From Escherichia coli (GTDB lineage: Bacteria; Pseudomonadota; Gammaproteobacteria; Enterobacterales; Enterobacteriaceae): a stretch of 64,000 bases of DNA. This document shows, piece after piece, positions 33,001-36,000 of the stretch. The DNA is taken from assembly GCF_003334385.1 (NCBI RefSeq), contig NZ_QOWN01000002.1. One strand, 5' to 3'. Each line of letters begins with the position of its first letter. Position 1 is the first letter of the stretch. Position numbers: made by a program.

Positions 33001-36000
33001 CAGGCATTTGCTACTCTGAAGCAGTAATGTGAGCCCGCCGTGGTGTTGCGCCACGGCGGGTTTAATGTTGTCTGTCATACCAATACACCAGGCTCAACGC
33101 CACCAGCACAAACGCTATCGGTAAACCGAGCGCGGTAACAGGTGCGCTCAACGCAAATAGCAATCCCAGATTGACCATGATTTGATAGCTGATCCAGGTG
33201 AGTAAGCCAACGATGACACCTACAGCGAGACGGCTACCCATCCCTGGCGAGCGCGGGGCGCTAAAGGTAAACGGCACAGCCAGCAAAATCATCGCCAGGG
33301 TCAGGATGGGTTGCCCCAGTTTTTCCCACAGTGCAAGGCGGTATTCGCTGCTGGGTTGCCCGGTTTCCTGCAAATAATGGATGTAATGATTAAGCTGACG
33401 GACAGAAAAAGTATTGCCCGGCATTGATAACTCTTCAAGATCCATACTGGTGAAGGCCGATTGCCAGGCAAGATTATCTAATGTTTCCAGCGTTTCTTTG
33501 CCATTCAGCCATTTTTTATGATTCACACCATGCAGGATCCACGTTTTGTCGTCTTCAATGGTGGCACTGCGTGCATAAATGTAGGATTCGAGCGAGAGAT
33601 CGTCGCGATAATGAAAAATCTCCACGCCCACCGGCTGGCCCTGCTCGTTCAGCGATTTCACCGTCACAAATTCATTACCACGCCTGGCCCACAGCATATT
33701 GCCGGTAATGTCATCGTCCTCCCCCAACGCGGTGGCGGTCGATTTGATTTGCAACGCCTGTTGCTGTAATGGCGACGCTACCCACTCATCTATCGCGCCT
33801 AACGAAACAGTCCACAATATCCCTGCAACCAGCGCCACCAGTGCAATACGGAAGATAGAAAACCCCATGCTGCGAATGGCGGTAAGCTCACTGTTTTTCG
33901 ATAACTGCCCCAGGCCGACAATCCCTCCCAATAAGGCGATAAATGGCGAAAGTTCGACCAGTGTGCGCGGTAAGGTCATTAGCACCACCAGCACCGCCTG
34001 AGTCCAGCGATAACCGCCCGGGCTGACATCATCCAGTTCGTTAATCAGGTTGAAGGTGGTAAAAAGCGGCAGCAATAGCCCTGCGGCGGCGGCAAAACCG
34101 AGAAAGAGATGACGGATTAAATAGCGGCTGAAAACATTCATCGGGAAAATTTCTGCAGCAAAGAGAAGTCGCGTGCGACCAGCATCAGCAGGCCCATTAG
34201 CATGAGTCCGGGTACTAACCACAAACCAGGAATGAGGGGAATCGCGCCGTTAGCCACCAGCGTACGGCAGACGTCACCGCCATAAAAAATGGCAATAAAC
34301 AGCAACGTCAGTGGCAATAACGTTGAAAATCGCCCTTGCCGCGGTTTTACCCGACTTAATGAAATGGCCAGCAGCGCCATCAACAATGCGGTCAGGCCAC
34401 GGCTTTGCCGCCATTGCAGTTCGGCATGATCGGCTGGAAAGACGGAGCGCGCCAGCTCCGTGACCGATTTCGCTTTGCGTTTGACGTTAGGGCTTTGATC
34501 CAGCGGATTCAGATGTAATTGCAGATTACGGTAGATCTGTTCGTTGTCATCACGCCCCTGATGATCGATAAGATAGGCAGTGCCGTTGTGCAACATAACG
34601 GTCGGTTTCTCGGGTGATGGGTCAACCACATCAACCGAACGGGCGCGGAAAATGCGGGTTCGATTGGCAGTAGAAGTATAAATCAGCGCGTCAGTCAGGC
34701 GATTATTATCCTGATCAACCGTCTGCGAAAGGATCATTCGTCCGTTATCGTTAGTGTTAAATTTCTTTGCCCGCAACTGGCGAACATCCAGCTCCGACTG
34801 CGACTGCTGCTCCAGTTGATAAATCTGCGCATAAGCCCACGGACGACCATACATCGACAGAAGGGTGACAAAAATACTTAGCGGTATCGCCAGATAAAGA
34901 ACGGCTTTGTACAAGCGTCCCGGACTGCCCCCCGCCGCAGAGATAGCGGTAATTTCCGAGTCGGTATACATCTGCCCTAGCGTCACGCCAACTGACACAT
35001 ACAGACCAACAGGTAACAACATCTCCAGTGCAATCAGTACTTTGTAGAAAACGATATCCAGCACAACATCAAGAGCTAATGTCCCATTTGCCGCTTCGGT
35101 CAGATAACGCTGTGCGGAGTAGCTGGCGAAAATAAAGATCAGAAAACCGACGATAATCAGCACCAGACGGCGCGTACCACGCATGATGTAGTGTTCAACC
35201 AGCTTCATCTCACTAACGCCCTCAATCCTTTGAGTTTTTTATTCATTGATCAGTTTCTGCGCCAACGCAATGACATGATCTACCTCTTCCGGCGTCAGGC
35301 TGCCGTCCTTTGCCCACTGAATTTGCCCGGCTTTATTCAGCACCAGAATGGTTGAACTCTGCTCCGGCAAGCGCCAGGCAACGCGTCCCTGTCCATTGCC
35401 GTCAATAACGAATTGCGCCCACGGATAGCGGCGTTTATTTTTTTCGATTTTGCCAACAACAAAATAGCCAGTACCAAAGATGGCATCATCGGTGTTCACA
35501 ATGGTGGTGGGCTGAAAACGATCCTGCGGAAAGTTTGCCGCTTCAACCGCTTTAATTAACAGTGAGTTCTTTTTCTTCGCCGACTTACGCCCGGCGATAT
35601 ACTGAATAATGCGGACTTTTCCCGCTAATTGTGTGCTGTTCCACTTTTGGTAGTGAATTTCGTCGTCGCTATTCAGAAGCAGCTCGCCGCCTTCCTGGAT
35701 ATAAACAGGGGTAACCGTTTTGCCAGTGACGAAATTGTGTGCCTGCACACCCGGGGCTAAGAGCATGATAATCAACGCAATAATCAAACGAGATGACATC
35801 ATTGCTCCGGCTATAGCGGAAAACGCGAAATCAGCAGCTCTAAGCGCTGACGAATATCGCTATCCAGCGCCACCGGTGCATCATACGACTGGCGGTTTTC
35901 CATATCATCCGCCACCATGTCGTCGTGTTTATCTCCCATCAGGCCATTAATGGCGGCGAGGAAGCGGGATATCTGTAACGCCTCTTTATTTTCAGGATCA

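What the first reader, a model, noticed from the sequence alone, without database searches (positions are those of the whole stretch)
33062..35208. Paralogous LptF/LptG-like permease pair with no adjacent ABC ATPase
Two overlapping YjgP/YjgQ-family permease genes (ATGA overlap at 34138-34141) sit in the accessory operon, distinct from the housekeeping LPS transporter genes. This suggests a dedicated extractor for a different outer-membrane lipid that either borrows LptB or uses another energy source.
Basis: inference. Interest (0 to 1): 0.7.

Follow-up and report, generated by a model that had tools for sequence, protein, structure and literature searches.

The report
Sphingolipid-locus LptF2/LptG2 permease pair
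These two genes are a second, ancient copy of the membrane half of the lipopolysaccharide exporter, sitting inside E. coli's accessory sphingolipid-synthesis cluster, where they most likely export that lipid using the cell's ordinary LptB motor; a 2026 preprint already described this arrangement and showed the E. coli locus.

Summary
Two minus-strand genes, 34138-35208 (356 aa) and 33062-34141 (359 aa), overlap by ATGA. They score above NCBI's curated cut-offs for LptF and LptG. Both model as six transmembrane helices with a periplasmic beta domain. No ABC ATPase gene lies nearby.

They are not the housekeeping genes. They share 28-29% identity with K-12 LptF/LptG. The pepA-linked housekeeping pair is in 5426/5426 complete E. 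coli genomes; this pair is in 4132/5426. K-12 lost it through an IS5-associated deletion. dN/dS of 0.04-0.08 rules out decaying duplicates.

The pair sits between the ceramide genes (yghO, acyl-ACP synthetase, reductase, ACP, spt) and yghQRST. In 76 related loci from gamma- and beta-proteobacterial genomes, 71 carry ceramide genes. None carries pepA, lptC, lptA or a stand-alone LptB-like ATPase.

Uchendu, Isom and Klein (bioRxiv, April 2026) showed that Caulobacter LptF2/LptG2 bind the sole LptB and are essential only when anionic sphingolipid is made. Their Figure 2B shows the E. coli UTI89 locus. Nothing has been tested in E. coli.

In this window the reductase gene carries a private amber codon (31021-31023).

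The parts
34138..35208 (-). lptF2: LptF-family permease, 356 aa
   Evidence: TIGR04407, 318 bits against a cut-off of 230. AF2 model pLDDT 85.2, with 6 TM helices and a beta domain at residues 158-232. Best PDB matches are LptF chains, TM-score up to 0.74. 29% identity to K-12 LptF over a 268-residue local alignment.
33062..34141 (-). lptG2: LptG-family permease, 359 aa; its ATG overlaps the lptF2 stop (ATGA at 34138-34141)
   Evidence: TIGR04408, 308 bits against a cut-off of 240. AF2 model pLDDT 84.3. Best PDB match 6mit_G, TM-score 0.86, rmsd 3.2 A. 28% identity to K-12 LptG.
33030..33064 (.). G+C-rich hairpin between the convergent spt and lptG2 genes; likely a shared terminator
   Evidence: 16-pair stem with 10 G-C pairs, the strongest terminator-like site in 28400-40600. 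This is a consensus scan only, so function is inferred.
35239..35802 (-). ytfJ-like gene immediately upstream of lptF2; predicted secreted (periplasmic) protein
   Evidence: TIGR01626 YtfJ family, 212 bits. N-terminal hydrophobic signal-like segment. Co-occurs with the pair in 31 of 76 related loci, nearly all labelled Enterobacterales.
35811..36635 (-). 274-aa soluble protein of unknown family, in the same gene string
   Evidence: No Pfam, NCBIfam or PDB match. Found in 29 of 76 loci.
36635..37984 (-). yghQ: MOP-superfamily flippase-like membrane protein (candidate inner-membrane flippase)
   Evidence: Weak NF007773 MOP flippase match. Multiple hydrophobic segments. K-12 keeps only a truncated yghQ. 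The flippase role is inferred.
38030..38788 (-). yghR: P-loop kinase-like protein, not an ABC ATPase
   Evidence: Weak dTMP-kinase match and a Walker A motif only. No significant PDB sequence match; best E = 0.09.
38820..39533 (-). yghS: paralogous P-loop kinase-like protein; probably the first gene of the minus-strand string
   Evidence: Gene spacing of 0-45 nt down to lptG2.
39707..40399 (+). yghT: third P-loop kinase-like paralogue, divergent from yghS
31855..33027 (+). spt: serine palmitoyltransferase, convergent with lptG2
   Evidence: NF047599, 598 bits against a cut-off of 500. The E. coli BL21 enzyme was shown to be active (PMC9386255).
31607..31855 (+). acpR: specialised acyl carrier protein
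   Evidence: ACP models. Homologue of ECD_02853.
30661..31575 (+). epi/cerR-like NAD-dependent reductase gene, interrupted in this window by an amber codon at 31021-31023
   Evidence: A at 31022 where L001 has G, giving TGG to TAG. The ORF is split into 30661-31023 and 31066-31575. No complete E. coli genome carries this allele.
28976..30664 (+). aasR: fatty acyl-AMP ligase / acyl-AcpR synthetase
   Evidence: RefSeq annotation transferred from L001, which is offset from the window by 19999. Homologue of ECD_02851.
27424..28566 (-). yghO: putative sphinganine N-acyltransferase (aca / bCerS-type)
   Evidence: Annotation from L001. Equated with aca ECD_02850 and CC_1154 in PMC9386255. It is the ceramide gene that stays next to LptF2/G2 most often, including in Nitrosomonas and Nitrosospira.

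Best explanation
lptF2 and lptG2 encode the heterodimeric membrane part of a second Lpt-type ABC extractor. That extractor is dedicated to the lipid made by the surrounding sphingolipid (ceramide) cluster.

Proposed mechanism:
1. The ceramide-type lipid is made at the cytoplasmic face of the inner membrane by AasR, AcpR, Spt, the reductase and YghO. It is probably decorated by cluster-specific enzymes; YghR/S/T and the 274-aa protein are the candidates.
2. It is flipped across the inner membrane, with YghQ as the candidate flippase.
3. LptF2/LptG2 take it from the outer leaflet of the inner membrane into their cavity.
4. The housekeeping LptB dimer, docked on the conserved coupling helices, supplies ATP energy to push the lipid up the periplasmic beta-jellyrolls towards the outer membrane. 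The onward route probably uses the cell's ordinary LptC/A/D/E bridge.

Shown here: family membership, fold, antiquity, purifying selection, conserved linkage to ceramide genes, and the absence of a dedicated ATPase, LptC or LptA.

Shown elsewhere, in Caulobacter only: the F2-G2-LptB complex and spt-dependent essentiality.

Inferred: everything about E. coli function, the substrate, the flippase and the periplasmic route.
For: Family and architecture:
- Full-length matches to the LptF and LptG equivalog models, above their cut-offs.
- Confident AF2 models with 6 TM helices and a beta domain between TM3 and TM4.
- The best structural matches are solved LptF and LptG chains, TM-score up to 0.74 and 0.86.

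LptB-facing elements:
- The coupling-helix glutamate (LptF E84, LptG E88) is invariant in all LptF2 and LptG2 sequences compared.
- The coupling helix and the TM4-TM5 cytoplasmic loop are the most conserved 20-residue windows against K-12 LptF/LptG: 12/20 and 12/20 for F, 11/20 and 9/20 for G. Overall identity is 25-28%.

Context:
- The pair is convergent with spt and embedded in the E. coli ceramide cluster.
- Of 76 related genome loci, 75 keep F2 and G2 adjacent on one strand, 54 have spt within 10 kb, 71 have at least one ceramide gene and 45 have all five. None has pepA, lptC or lptA.
- Two further metagenomic loci show the same arrangement.
- Within the core cluster, LptB-like hits are fused MsbA-type exporters of about 570-680 aa; none is a stand-alone ATPase beside the pair.

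Selection: dN/dS is 0.04-0.08 within Escherichia, the same range as spt.

Literature:
- Caulobacter LptF2/G2 bind each other and LptB, and can be deleted only in spt or cpgB mutants. The same preprint shows the E. coli UTI89 locus in its Figure 2B.
- E. coli AasR, AcpR and Spt make 3-oxo-sphinganine when overexpressed.
Against: - No experiment in E. coli shows that the cluster is expressed, that a sphingolipid reaches the outer membrane, or that LptF2/G2 bind LptB.
- A natural isolate (PSS-04) carries an IS5-family insertion in lptG2 and an internal stop in the ytfJ-like gene, while spt, acpR, the reductase, aasR and yghO are annotated intact. So, unlike in Caulobacter, losing the transporter is tolerated. 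The pathway may be silent, or its product may not be toxic.
- 24% of complete E. coli genomes, K-12 among them, lack the pair.
- In this window the reductase gene has a premature stop, so the pathway may be broken in this strain.
- I could not obtain the Caulobacter sequences, so direct orthology to the characterised proteins rests on the preprint's figure and on shared context.
- No residue-level signature of a non-LPS substrate could be established.
Confidence: 0.75

Rival explanations
1. The pair is a back-up or variant LPS exporter, for example for a modified lipid A or core made under particular conditions. It would not be a sphingolipid transporter.
For: Both proteins pass the NCBI 'equivalog' cut-offs for LptF and LptG, and RefSeq names them LPS export permeases. 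The fold is the same as the LPS exporter's. Several LPS phosphate-contact positions keep a positive charge: LptF R33, LptG K62 and LptG R136.
Against: The linkage is to ceramide genes, not LPS genes, in 71 of 76 loci across distant taxa. The pair is dispensable and absent from K-12 and 24% of genomes, whereas the housekeeping pair is universal. Identity to the host's own LptF/G is only 28-29%. In Caulobacter, essentiality depends on spt and cpgB, not on LPS.
Confidence: 0.06
2. In E. coli the pair, and perhaps the whole cluster, is a silent or decaying relic with no present function. It would have been inherited or acquired along with the sphingolipid island.
For: There is an IS5-associated deletion in K-12 and an IS5-family insertion in lptG2 in at least two isolates. 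Truncated forms and LptF2-PitB fusion products occur in the protein database. This window has a premature stop in the reductase gene. The papers read here report no native sphingolipid in E. coli; the E. coli enzymes were assayed only after overexpression.
Against: dN/dS of 0.04-0.08 for both genes within Escherichia, the same range as spt. Full-length intact genes occur in 4106 of 5426 complete genomes. The same gene string is conserved at 62-79% protein identity across many genera of Enterobacterales.
Confidence: 0.12
3. LptF2/G2 extract the sphingolipid but do not hand it to the Lpt bridge. Instead the secreted YtfJ-like protein encoded just upstream, or another unknown factor, carries it across the periplasm. 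Alternatively, an ATPase other than LptB powers the pair.
For: No lptC, lptA or lptD/E duplicate occurs in any locus. A ytfJ-like gene with a signal-like N-terminus sits 30 nt upstream of lptF2 in 31 loci, nearly all labelled Enterobacterales. In strain PSS-04, ytfJ-like and lptG2 are both inactivated. The preprint could not show LptC2 binding and leaves the periplasmic route open.
Against: The YtfJ-like gene is missing from the Pseudomonas, Azotobacter and beta-proteobacterial loci, which still have LptF2/G2. The beta-jellyroll domains that dock onto the bridge in the LPS system are retained. LptB binding is shown in Caulobacter. There is no evidence that YtfJ proteins bind lipid.
Confidence: 0.07

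Closest known systems
Caulobacter crescentus LptF2/LptG2 (CCNA_01214 / CCNA_01213; CC_1156 / CC_1155), sphingolipid-locus paralogues of LptF/LptG (Uchendu, Isom & Klein, bioRxiv 2026, 10.64898/2026.04.12.717747; proposed earlier in Olea-Ozuna et al. 2024, PMC11324152)
   Same: An adjacent LptF-like and LptG-like pair sits inside the spt/ceramide gene cluster. There is no LptB, LptA or LptD/E duplicate. The fold is the same as LptFG. The preprint itself draws the E. coli UTI89 locus as homologous.
   Different: E. coli has no LptC2, which the preprint reports only in Caulobacter. It also has no CpgB-type (DAG-kinase family) ceramide kinase. Instead it carries yghQ (MOP flippase-like), three P-loop kinase-like genes (yghR/S/T), a 274-aa orphan and a ytfJ-like gene. 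Loss of lptG2 is tolerated in a natural isolate whose spt is intact, whereas the Caulobacter genes are essential when CPG2 is made. I did not compare the sequences directly.
Housekeeping LPS extractor LptB2FG(C) of E. coli (b4261/b4262 with LptB b3201)
   Same: Same family (PF03739; TIGR04407 and TIGR04408). Six TM helices plus a beta-jellyroll. Same coupling-helix glutamate. Same overlapping F-then-G gene order.
   Different: Only 28-29% identity. A different locus: not pepA-linked, but inside the sphingolipid cluster. Non-essential and absent from 24% of genomes. No LptB gene anywhere in the cluster; E. coli's only annotated lptB sits with lptC and lptA at the distant kdsD-rpoN locus.
spt-linked LptF2/LptG2 of Pseudomonas, Azotobacter, Stutzerimonas, Nitrococcus and beta-proteobacteria
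   Same: The same clade, at 33-61% identity to the E. coli proteins against 28-29% to E. coli's own LptF/G. The same yghO / aasR / epi / acpR / spt neighbours.
   Different: The Pseudomonas, Azotobacter and Nitrococcus loci examined place a YegS/DAG-kinase-like lipid kinase after lptG2; a CDP-alcohol phosphatidyltransferase-like gene was identified in the Azotobacter locus. A fused MsbA-type ABC exporter lies within about 6-8 kb of the pair in about 20 of the Pseudomonas-type and beta-proteobacterial loci. The enterobacterial yghQ / ytfJ-like / 274-aa module is absent from them.

Membership tests
LptF/LptG (YjgP/YjgQ, PF03739) permease family | Full-length match to the family HMMs above curated cut-offs | tested here: met
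   TIGR04407 318 bits (cut-off 230) and TIGR04408 308 bits (cut-off 240), each covering almost the whole protein. PF03739 precomputed.
LptF/LptG (YjgP/YjgQ, PF03739) permease family | Six transmembrane helices with a periplasmic beta-jellyroll inserted between TM3 and TM4 | tested here: met
   AF2 models with pLDDT 85.2 and 84.3 show this helix and strand order. Foldseek top hits are exclusively LptF and LptG chains, TM-score up to 0.74 and 0.86.
LptF/LptG (YjgP/YjgQ, PF03739) permease family | Cytoplasmic coupling helix after TM2 carrying the conserved glutamate (LptF E84 / LptG E88) that docks into LptB | tested here: met
   E85 in both proteins aligns to E84 and E88. It is invariant in all LptF2 and LptG2 sequences compared. 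The region is among the most conserved against the K-12 proteins. The role of these residues is taken from PMC5082905, listed.
LptF/LptG (YjgP/YjgQ, PF03739) permease family | Encoded as an adjacent F-G pair that forms a heterodimer | tested here: met
   ATGA overlap. Adjacent on the same strand in 75 of 76 related loci. Heterodimer formation itself was not tested.
Housekeeping LPS exporter LptB2FG (orthologues of E. coli b4261/b4262) | Orthology to the pepA-linked lptFG present in every E. coli | tested here: not met
   28-29% identity. Different locus. The housekeeping pair is separately present in 5426/5426 genomes. No pepA in any of the 76 related loci.
Housekeeping LPS exporter LptB2FG (orthologues of E. 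coli b4261/b4262) | Essential for viability | tested here: not met
   The pair is deleted in K-12 MG1655, absent from 1294 of 5426 complete genomes, and disrupted by an IS element in isolate PSS-04.
Housekeeping LPS exporter LptB2FG (orthologues of E. coli b4261/b4262) | Cationic cavity residues that contact the lipid A phosphates and core (LptG K34, K40, K41, K62, R133, R136; LptF R33, K317, K322; from PMC6744409) | tested here: inconclusive
   LptG2 has N/D, D/E, D and L at the K34, K40, K41 and R133 positions, and keeps R and K/R at K62 and R136. LptF2 keeps R at R33. However, the P. aeruginosa and A. baylyi housekeeping LptG proteins also lack the K34/K40/K41 lysines, so the difference does not discriminate substrates.
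Sphingolipid-locus LptF2/LptG2 transporters (Caulobacter type) | Encoded within or beside the spt/ceramide biosynthesis cluster | tested here: met
   Convergent with spt, with a 34-nt spacer. yghO, aasR, epi and acpR lie within 6 kb. The linkage is conserved in 71 of 76 related loci.
Sphingolipid-locus LptF2/LptG2 transporters (Caulobacter type) | No dedicated LptB paralogue; uses the housekeeping LptB | tested here: inconclusive
   The absence of a local ATPase gene is shown. Whether LptB is actually used cannot be tested with these tools. It was shown only for Caulobacter.
Sphingolipid-locus LptF2/LptG2 transporters (Caulobacter type) | Deletion is lethal only when the (anionic) sphingolipid is made | not testable with these tools
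   One indirect hint points against strict lethality in E. coli: isolate PSS-04 has lptG2 split by an IS element while spt and the other synthesis genes are annotated intact.
Sphingolipid-locus LptF2/LptG2 transporters (Caulobacter type) | Sequence orthology to CCNA_01214 / CCNA_01213 | not tested
Homology is asserted in Figure 2B of the preprint.

The most novel reading that the evidence does not exclude
The enterobacterial version of the system may handle a chemically new sphingolipid and use a new periplasmic partner.

The Caulobacter and Pseudomonas-type head-group genes (a DAG-kinase-type ceramide kinase and a CDP-alcohol transferase) are replaced in E. coli by three paralogous P-loop kinase-like proteins (YghR/S/T), a 274-aa orphan, a MOP-type flippase (YghQ) and a secreted YtfJ-family protein encoded 30 nt upstream of lptF2.

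If E. coli and its relatives make an undescribed, conditionally expressed outer-membrane sphingolipid that shares LptB, and perhaps the Lpt bridge, with LPS, that would be a new envelope component in the best-studied bacterium. It would also give a function to five y-genes.
Probability: 0.2. Interest if true: 0.65.

Novelty: already known. Interest (0 to 1): 0.3.

Why it matters
How Gram-negative bacteria move sphingolipids to the outer membrane was an open question until 2024-2026. The answer proposed for Caulobacter is a second LptFG pair that shares LptB with the LPS pathway. This means two bulk lipids compete for one motor, which is also a drug target (zosurabalpin-class compounds bind LptB2FG).

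The E. coli copy is in three quarters of sequenced strains, including pathogens and BL21, but not in K-12. That is probably why it has been overlooked.

It matters practically in two ways:
- RefSeq labels both pairs as 'LPS export permease LptF/LptG', which misleads automated analyses.
- E. coli would be the most tractable host for testing LptB sharing, substrate choice and the periplasmic route.

The concept itself is no longer new.

Tried and rejected
1. **Substrate signature in the cavity.**
   - LptG2 replaces E. coli LptG K34/K40/K41/R133 with N/D, D/E, D and L. This holds across 75 sequences and looked like a charge reversal tuned to a non-LPS lipid.
   - I rejected it as diagnostic. The housekeeping LptG of P. 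aeruginosa (A, N, D) and of A. baylyi (T, S, N) lack the same lysines.
   - The LptF K317 equivalence also changed between alignments: V, R315.

2. **YghR/S/T as the missing ATPase.** They have LptB-like sizes (230-252 aa) and a Walker A motif. But they give only weak dTMP-kinase matches, have no ABC signature and have no PDB relatives. Rejected.

3. **An LptC/LptA-like bridge protein in the locus.** tblastn with K-12 LptC and LptA found nothing in 76 loci. The 274-aa protein, the YtfJ-like protein and YghO gave no Pfam or PDB leads.

4. **Genome scan with diverse alignments.** A 5-sequence alignment worked.

5. **Finding Caulobacter or Sphingomonas orthologues by cluster names.** The names were uninformative.

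6. **'Recent inactive duplicate'.** Rejected on 28-29% identity to the host genes, closer relatives in Pseudomonas (50-61%), and dN/dS of 0.04-0.08.

7. **The CpgB ceramide kinase as a relative of YghR/S/T.** CpgB belongs to the DAG-kinase/LCB5 family, so it is unrelated.
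Full report
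**1. What is in the sequence**

The window is an E. coli chromosomal segment. A 12.5-kb stretch around the finding is 99.95% identical to strain 720632. The gene order matches K-12: glcB-glcC, yghO..., yghQ-yghR-yghS, yghT, pitB, gss, hyb.

- The minus strand carries an ORF at 34138..35208 (356 aa). A second ORF starts at the ATG at 34141 and ends at 33062 (359 aa).
- The first protein scores 318 bits on the NCBIfam LptF equivalog TIGR04407 (cut-off 230). The second scores 308 bits on the LptG equivalog TIGR04408 (cut-off 240). Both matches are essentially full length.
- No annotated feature within 13 kb on either side is an ABC ATPase.

**2. Not the housekeeping genes, and not recent or dead copies**

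- K-12 LptF and LptG (b4261/b4262, next to pepA) are 29% and 28% identical to the two proteins. Over a global alignment the figures are 25% and 28%.
- The housekeeping pair is in 5426 of 5426 complete E. coli genomes. The accessory pair is in 4132, and 4106 of those hold most of the query in one place.
- K-12 lacks it. An IS5 element sits between yghO and a truncated yghQ where the cluster should be.
- Relatives with 62-79% identity occur across Enterobacterales: Citrobacter, Pseudocitrobacter, Hafnia, Shimwellia, Serratia, Sodalis, Erwinia, Pantoea, Mangrovibacter, Pluralibacter and Klebsiella indica.
- Relatives with 50-61% identity occur in Pseudomonas, Azotobacter and Stutzerimonas. Relatives with 33-48% identity occur in beta-proteobacteria and Nitrococcus.
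- The E. coli proteins are thus much closer to these than to E. coli's own LptF/LptG.
- Nei-Gojobori dN/dS between the window and other Escherichia lineages is 0.047-0.083 for lptF2 and 0.039-0.051 for lptG2. For spt it is 0.030-0.092.

**3. Architecture**

- AlphaFold2 models built on alignments of diverse relatives are confident: LptF2 mean pLDDT 85.2 and pTM 0.74, LptG2 84.3 and 0.72.
- Each has three long helices, a short helix at 85-91, a beta-rich domain (roughly 150-232), and three more long helices.
- Foldseek against the PDB returns only LptF and LptG chains at the top. For LptF2 the best is 9dok_F (TM 0.74). For LptG2 the best is 6mit_G (TM 0.86, rmsd 3.2 A).
- The short helix carries the glutamate that aligns with LptF E84 and LptG E88, the coupling-helix residues studied in PMC5082905. 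It is invariant in all the LptF2 and LptG2 sequences I extracted.
- Against the K-12 proteins, the most conserved 20-residue windows are this coupling helix (12/20 and 11/20) and the TM4-TM5 cytoplasmic loop (12/20 and 9/20).

In short, the cytoplasmic face that meets LptB is the best-preserved part. That fits use of the same ATPase, but it does not prove it.

**4. Context**

- *Plus strand, convergent with the pair:* a fatty acyl-AMP ligase (aasR), an NAD-dependent epimerase/reductase, a small ACP, and a serine palmitoyltransferase (NF047599, 598 bits). yghO lies divergently upstream.
- *Published function of these genes:* Padilla-Gomez et al. (PMC9386255) showed that the BL21 homologues AasR, AcpR and Spt make 3-oxo-sphinganine when overexpressed. 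They assign the reductase and YghO (aca) to dihydroceramide synthesis.
- *Minus strand, upstream of lptF2:* a YtfJ-family gene with a signal-like N-terminus, a 274-aa orphan, yghQ (MOP flippase-like), yghR and yghS. Gaps are 0-45 nt, which suggests one transcription unit ending with lptF2-lptG2.
- *Between spt and lptG2:* a 16-pair G+C-rich hairpin at 33030-33064.
- *YghR/S/T:* P-loop proteins with weak dTMP-kinase similarity and no ABC signature.

**5. Is the linkage to sphingolipid genes conserved?**

I scanned one genome per species (GTDB) with a small LptF2 alignment and obtained 76 loci. tblastn with the window's proteins gave the following:

| Feature within the locus (up to 10 kb of flank) | Loci (of 76) |
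|---|---|
| LptG2 adjacent on the same strand | 75 |
| Spt within 10 kb | 54 |
| At least one of the five ceramide genes | 71 |
| All five ceramide genes | 45 |
| PepA, LptC or LptA | 0 |

- Of the five loci with no ceramide gene, four have under 6 kb of flank on the upstream side (L027, L035, L046, L057). The fifth is a Geobacter MAG.
- In Nitrosomonas and Nitrosospira only the yghO homologue stays beside the pair. This agrees with the published scattered arrangement there.
- Within the core cluster, LptB-like hits fall in fused exporter ORFs of about 570-680 aa, the MsbA type. They are probably flippases.
- Three metagenomic or genomic loci reached through the 1.8-billion-protein search add to this. 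Two have the same spt-cluster arrangement. One has the same head-group genes without spt in range.

**6. Comparison with what is known**

- Olea-Ozuna et al. 2024 (PMC11324152) proposed that CC_1168, CC_1156 and CC_1155 (LptC2, LptF2, LptG2) in the Caulobacter sphingolipid region transport phosphosphingolipids.
- Uchendu, Isom and Klein (bioRxiv, April 2026) then reported four results:
  - The three genes can be deleted only in delta-spt or delta-cpgB backgrounds.
  - LptF2 and LptG2 co-purify.
  - Both pull down the single LptB.
  - No LptB, LptA or LptD/E duplicates exist.
- That preprint draws the E. coli UTI89 locus next to those of Caulobacter and Sphingomonas in its Figure 2B. It also states that lptF2/lptG2 occur in many sphingolipid loci of alpha- and gamma-proteobacteria.
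I rate it supported and the finding already known.

Nothing has been tested in E. coli.

**7. Where E. coli differs**

- There is no LptC2.
- The head-group genes differ. The Pseudomonas, Azotobacter and Nitrococcus loci examined carry a YegS/DAG-kinase-like lipid kinase after lptG2, the family to which the Caulobacter ceramide kinase CpgB belongs. A CDP-alcohol phosphatidyltransferase-like gene was identified in the Azotobacter locus.
- Enterobacterales instead carry yghQ, yghR/S/T, the 274-aa orphan and the ytfJ-like gene. The lipid exported in E. coli, if any, may therefore have a different head group.
- Isolate PSS-04 has lptG2 split by an IS5-family element and an internal stop in the ytfJ-like gene. 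Its synthesis genes are annotated intact. Loss of the transporter is thus not lethal there, unlike in Caulobacter. Either the cluster is silent under ordinary conditions or its product is harmless in the inner membrane.

**8. A lead that failed**

- Tang et al. (PMC6744409) list the residues that contact the lipid A phosphates and core.
- LptG2 has N/D, D/E, D and L at LptG K34, K40, K41 and R133, conserved in 75 sequences. It keeps the positive residues at K62 and R136. LptF2 keeps R33.
- This looked like a specificity signature. However, the housekeeping LptG proteins of P. aeruginosa and A. baylyi also lack those lysines, so it says nothing reliable about substrate.

**9. This particular window**

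- The reductase gene has A instead of G at 31022, turning TGG into TAG (codon 121 of 304) and splitting the ORF.
- A 61-base query centred on the site matched 2516 complete genomes, none of them at 100%. The allele is private to this strain or is a sequencing error.
- If real, ceramide synthesis may be blocked here. The transporter would then have no cargo in this strain.

**10. Verdict**

It is a well-supported member of the sphingolipid-locus LptF2/LptG2 class, which is already described in the literature, including for E. coli at the level of gene maps.

Residual interest lies in the untested E. coli biology: the identity of the lipid, the conditions of expression, competition with LPS for LptB, and the roles of the YtfJ-like protein and YghR/S/T.

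Noticed in passing
window 31021-31023 (within 30661-31575, + strand): The epimerase/reductase (cerR/epi-like) gene of the ceramide cluster carries an amber codon: TAG where other strains have TGG (A for G at 31022). This splits it into ORFs 30661-31023 and 31066-31575. None of 5426 complete E. coli genomes has this allele. The sphingolipid pathway may therefore be broken in this strain, or this may be a sequencing error.
   Followed up: yes
L003 (K-12 MG1655) 9044-12409, corresponding to window about 27424-37984: K-12 lacks the whole aasR-to-274-aa-gene segment, including lptF2/lptG2. An IS5 element lies between yghO and a truncated yghQ. This explains why the system is unknown from K-12 work.
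   Followed up: yes
L084 (E. coli PSS-04) 7063-11000: A natural isolate has an IS5-family (ISKpn26-like) insertion splitting lptG2 and an internal stop in the adjacent ytfJ-like gene. Meanwhile spt, acpR, the reductase, aasR and yghO are annotated intact. This contrasts with the spt-dependent essentiality of lptF2/G2 reported for Caulobacter.
   Followed up: partly
window 33062-35208; RefSeq records: RefSeq/PGAP names the accessory pair 'LPS export ABC transporter permease LptF/LptG', the same as the housekeeping genes, because both exceed the equivalog cut-offs of TIGR04407 and TIGR04408. Genomes therefore appear to have two lptF and two lptG genes. The name over-states what is known.
   Followed up: yes
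L031, L037, L040, L063 (Pseudomonas, Azotobacter, Nitrococcus), about 12100-14500 and 400-3800 in locus coordinates: In the non-enterobacterial loci examined, lptG2 is followed by a YegS/DAG-kinase-like lipid kinase and a conserved 320-aa orphan; the Azotobacter locus also has a CDP-alcohol phosphatidyltransferase-like gene there. A fused MsbA-type ABC exporter flanks spt. Enterobacterales have swapped this module for yghQ, yghR/S/T, a 274-aa orphan and a ytfJ-like gene. This suggests a different head group and a different flippase.
   Followed up: partly
proteins P0003-P0006, P0011-P0016, P0020, P0105: The protein database holds YtfJ-LptF2 read-through fusions (553 aa), LptF2-PitB fusions (450 aa; one of them seen on 34 contigs) and truncated Shigella forms (238 aa). 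This indicates recurrent deletions and decay of the locus in some lineages.
   Followed up: no
window 38030-40399: yghR, yghS and yghT are three paralogous P-loop proteins (Walker A G-x-D-G-[ST]-G-K-S-T and a shared DRYPQ motif). They have only weak dTMP-kinase similarity and no solved relatives. They travel with the sphingolipid cluster in about 25 of the roughly 35 enterobacterial loci and, at 35-43% identity, in several Pseudomonas loci. They are candidate lipid head-group kinases.
   Followed up: partly
window 33030-33064: A 16-bp-stem, G+C-rich hairpin fills almost the whole 34-nt spacer between the convergent spt and lptG2 genes. It probably terminates transcription from both directions.
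   Followed up: partly
window 1-17511: ORF sizes upstream of the glc operon (686, 497 and 407 aa, and a 1526-aa ORF at 12931-17511) look like the type II secretion beta cluster with the large lipoprotein YghJ/SslE, which is largely degraded in K-12. This rests on gene sizes and map position only.
   Followed up: no
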